Positions 486 through 2,594 of a stretch of DNA of 64,000 nucleotides are shown here, piece after piece. The position numbers and the translations under genes are program-made. How positions within the stretch are numbered: the stretch's first letter is position 1; each line of letters begins with the position of its first letter. The notes beneath the pieces are model-generated. The model saw only the letters and a list, made by a program, of their open reading frames with translations. It ran no database searches and was not told where the DNA came from. The stretch is from the IMG/VR virus record IMGVR_UViG_2585427757_000006; one strand, written 5' to 3'. The stretch is from a virus. Taxonomy: Duplodnaviria; Heunggongvirae; Uroviricota; Caudoviricetes.

Positions 486-2594
486 TCACTTTAAAATGAT
501 ACGAGATAGTTCAGTAACTACAGATGAACCAAGACTATCAACGCTCGTTACCAGGGCATGATTTGAGTAAAATCTCTCCGGTGCGTCAGTCATGATGCCA
601 ATTGCCATCAAATCAATATCAGTCTGCGTTTCAATTTGCTTCGCAACTGAACGCAAATGAGCGTCAAAACCTCTCCCAACAGCCCACGGCGCGCCATCAC
701 TCAGAACAAGCATGATCTTCCTGTCCTCCATGCGACCGGAAAATAACGATGCAAGGCTGGCTATGCTTTCACCATCCACGTTATTAAGAAGTGGGAATGT
801 GTAGCCTACGCACCCCATACGTGAGCGAACTTCGCGAGAATTTACCTTTTCATTCCAATTTTTGATGATAGGTAGCATTAAAGATTCAAAGCGAGAGAAC
901 TCATACTTGACAGCCTTAAGTTCTCCTGCCGCCATATGACTACCAAATGTAGTGAAGCCGGTGATAATGTTGGGAACATTTATTCGATCAAGGGCATCGG
1001 CGATGGTATATGCACTTGCAAGAGCCAGTTTAATCGTTATACCACTCATTGAACCTGATAAATCAATCACTTGTTGAACACAGGCGTTAACGGCTTTAGA
1101 TTCTTCTTTTTTACGAAACACGCGAGCATCATTCATTGCTAATCTGTAGATACTAGAACCATGAATGCGCCCCCGACGCTGGCCCGGTATAAACTGAACT
1201 CTGTTTCTGCTTGCTATTGCTCGCTCCAGGTCTTTTGCCAGCGTCGACGAAACACCTGACGAAAGATGCTTTTCAATATATTTGTCGAAGAGCTGGTTGC
1301 CTTCAGGAACGATGCGATAGCGGCTGATTGGATATCCTCCCAAATCAATATCGGAGAATGTTTTAATAAGCCGTTTGATATGGGCTTCTGCCTGATCAAT
1401 GGAGCCGATGAAGTCGTATGAGCGATTGTATGGCCTGTATTCGCTTTTCGAGCTTTCTGTTAACTCGCTTTTAATCGTTTCGGATAGCGCATCTTCTGTC
1501 ATGCCTCCGACTTCATCTTCCATGCTATCCAACTCCTCTAAAGCCTCTTCCAGACTCATTTTTGACGGAGTTGGGATATCTGAAGAGCCGTCTTCTGTCG
1601 TTTTTCTTTTTTCGTGGTCAGCGGTTAATGATTCTGACGCCGCGTTATCAGAAGCATCAGAATCTGATACCTCTTTATCATTTTCTGTATCATCGAATAT
1701 TGTTTCTGATGATTCAGAATTATCTGAATCATCACTGTCGTTATTATCATGTTTGTGCTTACTATGTGATTCTGATTTGATAGATTTGTGGTTATCTAAC
1801 ACTGAGGGTGTCTCATGATCTTCGTTGTCTTCACTGTTTTCTCCAGAGGCATCCGTCTGGTCAGCGTCTGAAGGATCGGAAGTTTTTCCCGGAGCTGACT
1901 CCTTACCTTTGCTTTCACTTTCAGTGTCTTTGAGGATCTTAGCTATGGTCGCAGCCACCTTTACACAATCCTCGGTGCAAGACATGTTACGCACGGCCAC
2001 ATCGATACCATGTTCTTTTAATAATGAAATTGGTTTCTCAATGACAGGCCAATATTCATCCATGAAATCTACGAACGGTGCTTGGCCATCCCAGGCTCTT
2101 ACAACCGGACAGAGAAAGAAGTTTAGAAAAAGCGCGCGCTGATCTTTGCCACAATAAGCAATAGCCTCTGAAGCCTTTGGTTTAAAGACTTTTTCGATTA
2201 TAAGGCGCTGAGTTGCCATCAGATTACGTCTTGTTCCGTTAAAGACCTGACCCATTTTTCGCTCGATGAACACGTCTTCTAAGGCATTCCATAGCGACCA
2301 GGAAGGAACGCGTCCTTTTTCTCTCATTTTGTTGGACACACGAATATCGGTAAACAAAATGTGAGCAACCTCATGATCGAGAAATCCGCGCACAGCATTC
2401 ATCAATGCCGGTGTTGCGTTATCCGGGATTGATGGGATGTTTACGAGAATTGGCTCTCCATCATCGTTATAGCGTACATAAGCGTCGTCCCCTCGTTCTG
2501 CAACAGGGATGTTTTTACCTGAAAGGAGAGCGACTACTCGTTTTACACTGTCACGGAAGTCCTGAACCTCTTTGATGGAACGTTTTTTAGACAT
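486..2594 (-). CDS. CobT-like protein with C-terminal von Willebrand factor A (VWA) domain and long acidic Asp/Ser/Glu-rich linker
   Basis: 702-aa ORF; C-terminal DxSxS MIDAS-like motif (VIDLSGSMSG) and VWA-like fold signature; acidic low-complexity linker (DSDDSDNSESS...); family assignment from memory. Confidence 0.65.
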   Translation of the reverse strand: MSKKRSIKEVQDFRDSVKRVVALLSGKNIPVAERGDDAYVRYNDDGEPILVNIPSIPDNATPALMNAVRGFLDHEVAHILFTDIRVSNKMREKGRVPSWSLWNALEDVFIERKMGQVFNGTRRNLMATQRLIIEKVFKPKASEAIAYCGKDQRALFLNFFLCPVVRAWDGQAPFVDFMDEYWPVIEKPISLLKEHGIDVAVRNMSCTEDCVKVAATIAKILKDTESESKGKESAPGKTSDPSDADQTDASGENSEDNEDHETPSVLDNHKSIKSESHSKHKHDNNDSDDSDNSESSETIFDDTENDKEVSDSDASDNAASESLTADHEKRKTTEDGSSDIPTPSKMSLEEALEELDSMEDEVGGMTEDALSETIKSELTESSKSEYRPYNRSYDFIGSIDQAEAHIKRLIKTFSDIDLGGYPISRYRIVPEGNQLFDKYIEKHLSSGVSSTLAKDLERAIASRNRVQFIPGQRRGRIHGSSIYRLAMNDARVFRKKEESKAVNACVQQVIDLSGSMSGITIKLALASAYTIADALDRINVPNIITGFTTFGSHMAAGELKAVKYEFSRFESLMLPIIKNWNEKVNSREVRSRMGCVGYTFPLLNNVDGESIASLASLFSGRMEDRKIMLVLSDGAPWAVGRGFDAHLRSVAKQIETQTDIDLMAIGIMTDAPERFYSNHALVTSVDSLGSSVVTELSRIILK

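What the first reader, a model, noticed from the sequence alone, without database searches (positions are those of the whole stretch)
486..2594. CobT-like VWA protein with a highly acidic serine-rich linker
A VWA/MIDAS domain preceded by a ~130-aa D/S/E-rich disordered segment is unusual cargo for a phage. Such proteins normally pair with a MoxR/CobS-type AAA ATPase, which would lie beyond the left edge.
Basis: partly seen in the sequence, partly recalled or inferred. Interest (0 to 1): 0.4.

Follow-up and report, generated by a model that had tools for sequence, protein, structure and literature searches.

The report
Phage CobT-like VWA protein, peptidase motif
This gene encodes a well-known, widespread phage protein related to a vitamin-B12 enzyme subunit; it sits beside its ATPase partner in an E. 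coli phage-plasmid that has no B12 pathway and, unlike the bacterial enzyme, keeps a protease-type zinc site, so it is ordinary cargo whose real job is still untested.

Summary
ORF 486..2594 (minus strand, 702 aa) has a CobT N-domain, a disordered acidic/Ser-rich linker of about 110 aa, and a CobT_C VWA domain with a MIDAS motif.

The predicted AAA+ partner exists. It is CobS-like, starts inside the window at 390 and runs off the left edge.

The "unusual cargo" reading is not supported:
- The window is an SSU5/pHCM2-like E. coli phage-plasmid, and the protein is 99% identical to an annotated RefSeq protein.
- The family has more than 5,000 50%-identity clusters and its own PHROG.
- The cobT–cobS pair is conserved in many tailed phages, usually next to DNA replication genes.
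- The acidic linker is a family trait that cellular CobT shares.

What separates the viral clade from true cobaltochelatase CobT is an intact HExxH…E zincin motif. It is present in 143 of 146 diverse relatives. All 80 alphaproteobacterial CobT sequences examined have lost it.

The window and a plasmid matched to its first 8 kb lack CobN and every other cobalamin gene. That plasmid uses a B12-independent ribonucleotide reductase.

The most likely function is an ATP-driven protein remodelling or processing machine, not a chelatase. This is inferred, not shown. It is a known family with low-to-moderate interest.

The parts
486..2594 (-). CobT-like ORF, 702 aa: zincin-like N-domain, acidic linker, helical segment and VWA domain
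   Evidence: ORF list. Pfam CobT and CobT_C. PHROG 1576 over the full length. 99% identical to RefSeq 'cobaltochelatase CobT-related protein'.
1905..2594 (-). N-terminal domain, aa 1-230: helix a1, a three-stranded sheet, then a helical bundle (CobT_N / M48-like fold)
2361..2375 (-). HEVAH (aa 74-78), a zincin HExxH motif
   Evidence: D73, H74, E75 and H78 are invariant in alignment A2. The motif is present in 143 of 146 diverse full-length relatives. It is replaced by D[SA][MIL]AL[RK] in all 80 cellular CobT sequences examined.
2262..2279 (-). EDVFIE (aa 106-111) on the next long helix: candidate third zinc ligand (the 'glutamate helix')
   Evidence: D107 and E111 are invariant and N103 and E106 at least 90% conserved in A2. 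E106, D107 and E111 are invariant in A3. The helix spans aa 96-117 in the models. The ligand role is inferred.
1569..1904 (-). Disordered acidic, Ser-rich linker, aa 231-342
   Evidence: pLDDT is below 50 for aa 243-337. Composition: 21 D, 13 E and 22 S in 112 aa, net charge -24. Hypervariable in length and sequence even among SSU5-like relatives. No tandem DNA repeats.
1122..1568 (-). Structured helical segment before the VWA domain, aa 343-491. It corresponds to the N-terminal extension or 'shaft' of CobT_C.
   Evidence: pLDDT about 85-97 with helices at aa 348-356, 366-382, 399-413 and 448-461. It aligns with residues 313-420 of solved CobT 9uka_G. The shaft is described in bioRxiv 10.64898/2026.07.21.739949.
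492..1121 (-). VWA domain (Pfam CobT_C), aa 492-701
   Evidence: Pfam E 3.3e-82. Solved CobT VWA domain 21vt_A at E 1.3e-15. Profile against 9uka_G at E 1.3e-62.
1050..1064 (-). MIDAS motif DLSGS, aa 511-515
   Evidence: D511, S513 and S515 are invariant. They align with D422/S424/S426 of the solved CobT MIDAS.
1..390 (-). First 130 codons of the partner CobS-like AAA+ ATPase. These codons cover most of its ~140-aa N-terminal extension, which carries a CxxC..H..C knuckle. The AAA core lies beyond the left edge.
   Evidence: Translation. The full 411-aa copy is in L001: AAA_5 at E 2e-15 and PDB CobS at E 1e-25 from aa 142 onward. Walker A is at aa 175, and the knuckle is conserved in 17 of 21 near viral relatives.
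2693..2905 (-). 70-aa ORF directly upstream on the same strand. It may be the first gene of the same transcription unit; function unknown.
   Evidence: ORF list. Annotated as hypothetical WP_001098352.1 in the near-identical plasmid. No Pfam hit. Co-transcription is not shown.

Best explanation
The ORF encodes the VWA/MIDAS subunit of a two-gene 'CobST-like' AAA+ machine. The pair (cobT-like, then cobS-like) belongs to the replication-gene region of an SSU5/pHCM2-type E. coli phage-plasmid.

Shown:
- The protein is homologous to cobaltochelatase CobT along its whole length: N-domain, disordered acidic tether, helical shaft and VWA domain with MIDAS.
- Its ATPase partner is adjacent.
- The pair is conserved across many tailed phages, usually next to replication genes.
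- Unlike cellular CobT, the viral clade keeps an intact HExxH…E zincin motif.
- The window and a plasmid matched to its first 8 kb lack CobN and any other cobalamin gene.

Inferred mechanism:
- The CobS-like protein forms an ATP-driven hexamer.
- The CobT-like N-domain docks on the ATPase lid and the shaft/VWA module sits on the ring face, as in the solved CobST complexes.
- The flexible acidic tether lets the two ends move independently.
- The MIDAS site grips a carboxylate side chain of a client protein.
- ATP hydrolysis remodels the client, and the zinc site of the N-domain can cleave it.

On this reading the pair is a protein remodelling or processing device, not a cobalt chelatase. Its client is unknown. 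Synteny points to the DNA replication or early phase rather than to virion assembly.
For: Identity:
- Pfam CobT and CobT_C.
- PDB CobT at E 1e-15 with the single sequence and 1e-62 with a profile.
- Partner: AAA_5, and PDB CobS at E 1e-25.

Element:
- 99% identity to plasmid pM160133_p3 over the first 8 kb of the window, and 97.7-98.7% to phages CMS-2020a and Cyrano over 89% and 71% of that stretch.

Pairing and context:
- A CobS-like gene is present in 37 of 55 viral loci. It lies immediately downstream in 21 loci, all among the ~25 nearer relatives.
- The commonest neighbours are DnaE (20 loci), DNA ligase, primase, gp32 SSB, 5'-3' exonuclease and DnaB.
- In Vibrio phage ICP2 the pair lies beside primase and helicase.

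Zincin site:
- HExxH is present in 143 of 146 diverse relatives.
- D73, H74, E75, H78, D107 and E111 are invariant.
- The motif is also present in ICP2 gp41 and Gordonia Woes gp80, which were found through the VWA domain only.
- It is absent from all 80 cellular CobT sequences.
- The CobT_N fold was independently reported as M48C-like (bioRxiv 10.64898/2026.07.21.739949).
- A 'MoxR–vWA pair with an N-terminal metallopeptidase' was already described in jumbo phages (PMC7824862).

Not a chelatase here:
- It scores 67 bits against the TIGR01651 CobT equivalog, whose cut-off is 759.
- There is no CobN in the window; the three ORFs over 1,400 aa are tail proteins.
- The plasmid matched to the window's first 8 kb has no cobalamin genes and carries a class Ia NrdAB.
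- E. coli needs about 30 heterologous genes, including cobN, to make B12 (PMC6249242).
Against: - No experiment bears on this protein. Peptidase activity, zinc binding and the client are all inferred.
- A conserved HExxH could serve metal binding or sensing rather than proteolysis.
- Gene neighbourhood inside a phage module is weak evidence of function.
- The cellular comparison set is alphaproteobacterial only.
- The viral loci were fetched with patterns that include the HExxH region, so they cannot be used to count the motif. Only searches are unbiased for it.
- Three of the 146 relatives have lost the motif.
Confidence: 0.5

Rival explanations
1. The pair is a true auxiliary metabolic gene set. 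The phage CobS/CobT would join a host CobN (or ChlH-like) subunit to raise cobalamin synthesis during infection, as proposed for cyanophages and haloarchaeal viruses.
For: - Full-length homology to CobT and CobS.
- This hypothesis is published (PMC8651126; PMC3037559).
- The MIDAS motif and the E106/E111 equivalents are shared with cellular CobT.
Against: - The host is E. coli, which has no de novo B12 pathway or CobN (PMC6249242, plus established knowledge).
- There is no CobN or other cob gene in the window or in the plasmid matched to its first 8 kb.
- That plasmid's ribonucleotide reductase is class Ia, which does not need B12.
- The protein fails the CobT equivalog threshold, 67 against 759 bits.
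- The viral clade keeps a catalytic-type HExxH that the real chelatase subunit has lost.
Confidence: 0.07
2. The pair is a virion-assembly chaperone and protease. The MoxR-type ATPase and the VWA-peptidase would help assemble the virion and proteolytically process structural proteins. This was proposed for group 2.2 jumbo phages and is analogous to the tail-development proteins of Acidianus two-tailed virus.
For: - Published proposal for the same architecture (PMC7824862).
- The intact zincin motif.
- MoxR–VWA pairs are generally assembly chaperones (PMC7159879).
Against: - In the window the pair lies about 20 kb from the morphogenesis genes, at 23-53 kb.
- Across 55 viral loci the conserved neighbours are replication proteins, not structural ones.
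- The element already carries other candidates for tail-associated peptidases, such as a C40 peptidase.
Confidence: 0.15
3. The pair acts in host takeover or counter-defence. The ATP-driven peptidase would degrade a host protein such as a defence, nucleoid or replication factor. Alternatively, the polyanionic linker would act as a DNA mimic that titrates DNA-binding host proteins.
For: - Position among replication and regulatory genes, downstream of a divergently transcribed HTH regulator.
- The linker has net charge -24 to -36 and is hypervariable, as might be expected under an arms race.
- MoxR–VWA couples are common in conflict systems (PMC7159879).
Against: - Cellular CobT has an equally acidic linker that is simply a disordered tether.
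- The PADLOC hit (DrmE, E 9.5e-4, 15.8 bits) is not meaningful.
- No known anti-defence family matches.
- Conservation from enterobacterial to actinobacterial and archaeal viruses argues for a generic client rather than a host-specific one.
Confidence: 0.15

Closest known systems
Aerobic cobaltochelatase subunit CobT (EC 6.6.1.2; PDB 9uka chain G, 21vt; TIGR01651)
   Same: - Same four-part architecture: CobT_N, a disordered acidic linker of about 90-110 aa, a helical shaft, and a VWA domain with a DxSxS MIDAS.
- An adjacent CobS-type AAA+ partner.
- The E106/E111 equivalents are conserved.
   Different: - Cellular CobT has D[SA][MIL]AL[RK] where the phage protein has DHEVAH; none of 80 sequences has HExxH.
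- The phage protein scores 67 bits against an equivalog cut-off of 759.
- No CobN or B12 pathway accompanies it.
- Gene order here and in the nearer viral relatives is T then S, and the phage CobS carries an extra N-terminal zinc-knuckle extension.
Metallopeptidase–vWA plus MoxR AAA+ pair of group 2.2 jumbo phages (Iyer et al. 2021, PMC7824862); cyanophage 'peptidase'/cobT next to cobS
   Same: - Same domain logic: an N-terminal HExxH domain fused to vWA, with an adjacent MoxR-clade ATPase.
- Weak direct link: PHROG 459 'peptidase' matches aa 72-128 at E 1.2e-6.
   Different: - Those authors propose virion assembly, whereas here the conserved neighbours are replication genes.
- Direct sequence relatedness to the jumbo-phage proteins was not tested beyond the PHROG hit.
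Mg-chelatase BchD/ChlD and other MoxR–VWA couples (RavA–ViaA, NorQ–NorD, CbbQ–CbbO, CoxD–CoxE)
   Same: - An AAA+ ring of the MoxR/dynein-related clade works with a VWA/MIDAS adaptor joined by a charged flexible linker.
- The profile gives weak hits to NorD, and the partner hits midasin, CbbQ and NorQ.
   Different: - These adaptors lack the CobT_N zincin-like domain.
- BchD has an inactive AAA domain in its place.
- Their clients (Rubisco, NOR, respiratory complexes, porphyrin-binding subunit H) are not encoded in the window or in the matched plasmid.
M48/M56 zinc metallopeptidases (Ste24/ZMPSTE24, BlaR1; minigluzincins)
   Same: - HExxH lies on the helix after a three-stranded sheet, and conserved Glu residues lie on a following helix.
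   Different: - Sequence identity is only 6-12%.
- There is no Pfam Peptidase_M48 match.
- The domain is soluble and fused to VWA.
- Catalysis is untested.

Membership tests
Cobaltochelatase CobT (functional equivalog) | Score above the curated NCBIfam TIGR01651 equivalog cut-off | tested here: not met
   67.2 bits against a cut-off of 759.
Cobaltochelatase CobT (functional equivalog) | A CobN subunit and the hydrogenobyrinate a,c-diamide pathway are available in the same cell | tested here: not met
   No CobN in the 64-kb window or in the plasmid matched to its first 8 kb. E. coli lacks the pathway (PMC6249242, plus established knowledge). The host chromosome itself was not searched.
CobT superfamily (homology) | CobT N-domain plus CobT_C VWA domain joined by a disordered acidic linker | tested here: met
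   Pfam PF06213 at E 4e-27 and PF11775 at E 3e-82. PDB CobT matches. Linker pLDDT below 50.
CobT superfamily (homology) | MIDAS residues (DxSxS plus a distal D) | tested here: met
   D511, S513, S515 and D633 are invariant in 101 relatives. They align with D422/S424/S426 of solved CobT.
CobT superfamily (homology) | An adjacent CobS-type AAA+ (AAA_5) gene | tested here: met
   It starts at window position 390 on the minus strand. The full copy is in L001. It is present in 37 of 55 viral loci.
MoxR-clade AAA+ / VWA chaperone couple | An ATPase with intact Walker A and B motifs, paired with a VWA protein that has an intact MIDAS | tested here: met
   Walker A GHAGTGKS at aa 175 and VYLADEYD read directly from the partner sequence printed. 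MIDAS as above. ATPase activity is not testable here.
Zincin (HExxH) metallopeptidase, M48-like | An HExxH motif conserved across the family | tested here: met
   HEVAH at aa 74-78. Present in 143 of 146 relatives and invariant in A2.
Zincin (HExxH) metallopeptidase, M48-like | A third zinc ligand (Glu) on a downstream helix, placed next to the two His residues | tested here: inconclusive
   E106, D107 and E111 are conserved on helix 96-117.
Zincin (HExxH) metallopeptidase, M48-like | Fold or sequence match to a curated peptidase family | tested here: inconclusive
Zincin (HExxH) metallopeptidase, M48-like | Zinc-dependent peptide-bond hydrolysis | not testable with these tools
   This needs biochemistry.
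SSU5/pHCM2-like phage-plasmid (genomic context) | Near-identity to known members, together with phage structural, replication and partition genes | tested here: met
   Over the first 8 kb of the window, 97.7-99.1% identity to ~108-113-kb E. coli plasmids and to phages CMS-2020a and Cyrano. Tail, capsid and terminase genes, ParB and RepB are present. The group is described in the literature.

The most novel reading that the evidence does not exclude
Viral CobST pairs may be ATP-driven, MIDAS-targeted zinc metalloproteases that act on a replication-associated or host protein, not cobalamin genes at all. On this reading the routine 'cobS/cobT auxiliary metabolic gene' label in viromics is wrong for most phages. 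The cellular cobaltochelatase subunit CobT would then be a pseudo-peptidase offshoot of this lineage that lost H, E and H.
Probability: 0.35. Interest if true: 0.6.

Novelty: already known. Interest (0 to 1): 0.3.

Why it matters
cobS and cobT are counted as cobalamin auxiliary metabolic genes in very many virome studies. They are core genes of marine cyanomyoviruses and of SSU5-like phage-plasmids, which spread resistance genes in Enterobacteriaceae.

Two results here suggest the metabolic label is unsafe and point to a testable protease/remodeller function:
- In this case the window and a plasmid matched to its first 8 kb carry no cobN or other cobalamin gene, and E. coli is known to lack the pathway.
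- The viral clade systematically keeps a catalytic-type zinc site that the genuine chelatase subunit has lost.

The gene itself is ordinary, already annotated cargo. The value lies in the family-level contrast, not in this locus.

Tried and rejected
- phmmer of the N-domain alone against PDB sequences gave only chance hits to HLA class II and superoxide dismutase (E 0.03 or worse). A profile was needed, and even that aligned CobT_N only from just after the HExxH position.
- Foldseek of the N-domain model against the PDB gave nothing below E 1.
- The afdb50 library was unavailable.
- The PADLOC hit to DrmE (E 9.5e-4, 15.8 bits) was rejected as noise. The Pfam Mitofilin and SelP_N hits are low-complexity artefacts of the linker.
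- No tandem repeats underlie the D/S-rich linker DNA.
- The promoter and terminator scan of 1-3600 found no more sites than shuffled sequence, so it is uninformative. Repeats in the 2906-3155 intergenic region are short and unconvincing as operators.
- The linker as a DNA mimic was considered and down-weighted, because cellular CobT linkers are just as acidic.
- The idea that the ORF is part of an integrated island next to the tRNA genes was rejected. The whole window is a phage-plasmid, and the tRNAs and the integrase belong to it.
- Model coordinates are not exposed, so the zinc-site geometry could not be measured.
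Full report
**What is there**

ORF 486..2594 on the minus strand encodes 702 aa.

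- Pfam finds a CobT N-domain (aa 9-294, E 4e-27) and the CobT_C VWA domain (aa 492-701, E 3e-82).
- The NCBIfam CobT equivalog is hit at only 67 bits against a cut-off of 759.
- PHROG 1576 ('unknown function') covers the whole protein at 999 bits. Weaker hits go to PHROGs named CobT, cobalamin biosynthesis protein and 'peptidase'.
- The MIDAS motif DLSGS is at aa 511-515.
- A full-length AlphaFold model (101-sequence alignment, mean pLDDT 84.5) has three parts. The N-domain (aa 1-230) is confident. The segment at aa 243-337 has pLDDT below 50. The C-terminal module (aa 343-702), made of helices followed by an α/β VWA fold, is again confident.
- The linker at aa 231-342 has 21 D, 13 E and 22 S in 112 residues, a net charge of -24 and only 13% hydrophobic residues. 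The wider acidic stretch, aa 222-385, has a net charge of -36.

**Where it is**

The first 8 kb of the window are 99.1% identical to E. coli plasmid pM160133_p3 (113 kb). They are 97.7-98.7% identical to Escherichia phages CMS-2020a and Cyrano over the 89% and 71% of that stretch that align. These are SSU5/pHCM2-type phage-plasmids (literature).

- In both annotated records a 411-aa 'AAA family ATPase' lies directly downstream of the CobT-like gene. It is followed by DNA polymerase III alpha, a 5'-3' exonuclease and RecA.
- That ATPase starts inside the window at position 390 on the minus strand and runs off the left edge.
- It has an AAA_5 domain. It matches the solved cobaltochelatase CobS (9ujv) at E 1e-25 from its residue 142 onward, and then midasin, CbbQ and NorQ.

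**Is it unusual for a phage? No.**

- The protein is 99% identical to a RefSeq cluster of 3,307 sequences named 'cobaltochelatase CobT-related protein'.
- An exhaustive HMMER search finds 5,061 50%-identity clusters at E ≤ 1e-3 and 516 at E ≤ 1e-30.
- tblastn finds it in 74 deposited phage genomes. These include SSU5-like phages, Rhizobium RHEph10-like phages, Pseudomonas phage nickie, Vibrio ICP2 and many Gordonia phages.
- The N-domain fold recurs at the N-terminus of VWA proteins of many tailed phages and haloarchaeal viruses.
- Liu et al. 2021 already state that the cobST cluster is widespread in tailed viruses and is core in cyanomyoviruses (PMC8651126).

The acidic linker is a family trait.

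- Of 146 diverse full-length relatives, nearly all have a 100-aa window with 35-65 D/E.
- Cellular CobT has 39-44 D/E per 100 aa.
- The solved CobST structures report a disordered linker of about 90 residues.
- Within the SSU5-like group the linker is hypervariable in length and sequence, while both flanking domains are conserved.

**What distinguishes it from real CobT**

The N-domain carries HEVAH at aa 74-78.

- *In viral relatives.* Among the 146 best full-length representatives (27-61% identity to the query), 143 keep HExxH at the same place and all keep DxSxS. In a 101-sequence alignment D73, H74, E75, H78, D107, E111 and R166 are invariant. The three HExxH-less sequences were left out of that alignment; they read DKEVAN, DHQVAL and DQQVAR.
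- *In relatives found without bias for the motif.* Vibrio ICP2 gp41 and Gordonia Woes gp80 were found through the VWA domain only. They also carry HExxH.
- *In cellular CobT.* I rebuilt the sequence of the solved CobT (9uka_G) from the printed alignments. With it I fetched 80 alphaproteobacterial cobT loci at 64-79% identity. None has HExxH. The homologous position reads D[SA][MIL]AL[RK]. The E106 and E111 equivalents are kept and D107 becomes Q.

Cellular CobT therefore looks like a pseudo-peptidase, while the viral clade keeps a catalytic-type zincin site. This reconciles two published statements. One says cyanophage cobT is 'mistakenly annotated as a peptidase'. The other describes a jumbo-phage 'MoxR–vWA pair with an N-terminal metallopeptidase' (PMC7824862).

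**Can it be a chelatase here?**

Cobalt insertion needs CobN and its corrin substrate.

- The window has no CobN. Its three ORFs over 1,400 aa are a tail fibre, a J-like tail tip protein and a tape measure protein.
- Plasmid pM160133_p3, matched to the window's first 8 kb, has no cobalamin gene at all. It encodes class Ia (B12-independent) NrdAB, thymidylate synthase and DHFR.
- E. coli cannot make B12 de novo. Engineering it required about 30 heterologous genes, including cobN, cobS and cobT (PMC6249242).

The metabolic reading is therefore very unlikely for this element.

**Context across viruses**

I examined 55 viral loci. They were fetched with motif patterns, so they cannot be used to count HExxH.

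- A CobS-like gene accompanies the CobT-like gene in 37 loci. In the nearer relatives it lies immediately downstream (21 loci). In the distant ones it lies upstream.
- The most frequent other neighbours are replication and regulatory genes:

| Neighbour | Loci |
|---|---|
| DnaE-type Pol III alpha (+2 to +4, one locus at +5 and one at +7) | 20 |
| HTH regulator (mostly at -2) | 14 |
| ATP-dependent DNA ligase | 13 |
| Primase | 10 |
| T4 RNase H-like 5'-3' exonuclease | 10 |
| gp32-type SSB | 9 |
| Sigma-70-like factor | 9 |

- A DnaB-type helicase is also found, in 5 loci.
- In ICP2 the pair sits beside primase and helicase.
- In the window the morphogenesis genes are about 20 kb away, at 23-53 kb.
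- The viral CobS-like partner carries an N-terminal extension of about 140 aa with a CxxC…H…H/C knuckle. The knuckle is conserved in 17 of 21 near relatives and absent from cellular CobS.

**Most likely mechanism (inferred)**

By analogy with the solved CobST complexes and with MoxR–VWA couples in general:

- The CobS-like protein forms an ATP-driven ring.
- The CobT-like N-domain docks on the ATPase small subdomain, and the shaft/VWA module sits on the ring face.
- The acidic tether uncouples the two ends.
- The MIDAS site captures a carboxylate of a client.
- ATP hydrolysis remodels the client, and the intact zinc site can process it.

Synteny favours a client in the replication or early phase. 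Virion assembly (Iyer et al.) and host takeover or counter-defence remain possible. None of this is shown experimentally.

**Verdict**

The object is a known, already annotated member of a very large viral family, so its novelty is low.

The useful result is the clade-wide contrast: HExxH is kept in the viral proteins and lost in the 80 (alphaproteobacterial) cellular CobT sequences examined. This sits alongside an element that shows no cobalamin context. Together these argue against the routine 'cobalamin AMG' label and define clear experiments.

Noticed in passing
L002 (phage Cyrano OV696614), locus 7155-10594; equivalent to window 1-2594: Cyrano annotates the CobT-like gene as 'dimethylbenzimidazole phosphoribosyltransferase' and the AAA partner as 'cobalamin synthetase'. 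This is a name collision with the unrelated Salmonella CobT and CobS. Other records call the CobT-like gene 'porphyrin biosynthesis protein'.
   Followed up: yes
window 1-390 (-), full copy L001:11155-12390 (-): The CobS-like partner has an N-terminal extension of about 140 aa with a CxxC-x4-5-H-x4-H/C zinc-knuckle-like motif followed by a conserved [FY]P.AP.[LMI]S motif. The knuckle is present in 17 of 21 near viral relatives and absent from cellular CobS. No Pfam match; function unknown.
   Followed up: partly
window 61987-63953 (+): A 390-aa ORF with HTH_23, rve and Mu-transposase C-terminal domains is followed by an overlapping 265-aa ORF. Together they resemble an IS21-family istA/istB pair. 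Local GC is 0.54 against about 0.45 elsewhere, which suggests an insertion into the phage-plasmid backbone.
   Followed up: partly
window 34830-39404 (-) versus L140:15810-21694: The tape measure gene is intact in the window (1,524 aa). In plasmid pM160133_p3, which is 99% identical over the window's first 8 kb, it is split by an IS3-family element. The window's element may therefore still be a functional phage, while that relative is defective.
   Followed up: no
window 7162-7719 (-): A cluster of four tRNA genes (Ser-TGA, Thr-TGT, Tyr-GTA, Asn-GTT) lies inside the replication region. Related clusters occur in P7, D6 and Klebsiella SSU5-like phages, and phage Cyrano lacks the Tyr gene.
   Followed up: partly
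window 12645-13835 (+): A 396-aa Sel1-repeat protein (five or more repeats, E 1e-54) is encoded on the opposite strand, between the ligase and primase genes of the replication module. RefSeq annotates it as a tetratricopeptide repeat protein. It looks like a moron-type insertion.
   Followed up: no
window 3156-3542 (+) and 3537-4640 (-): An HTH regulator (called a putative repressor in Cyrano) lies upstream of the 70-aa ORF–cobT–cobS–dnaE gene array and points away from it. Its 3' end overlaps the 3' end of a tyrosine integrase gene by 6 bp. An HTH gene at position -2 from cobT recurs in 14 viral loci. No convincing operator repeats were found.
   Followed up: partly
L140-L142 (plasmid NZ_CP022167): The plasmid matched to the window's first 8 kb carries metG, apbC, dfrA51, a type I R-M system, the Cor exclusion lipoprotein and class Ia nrdAB. 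This is typical variable cargo of SSU5-like phage-plasmids. It has no cobalamin genes.
   Followed up: yes
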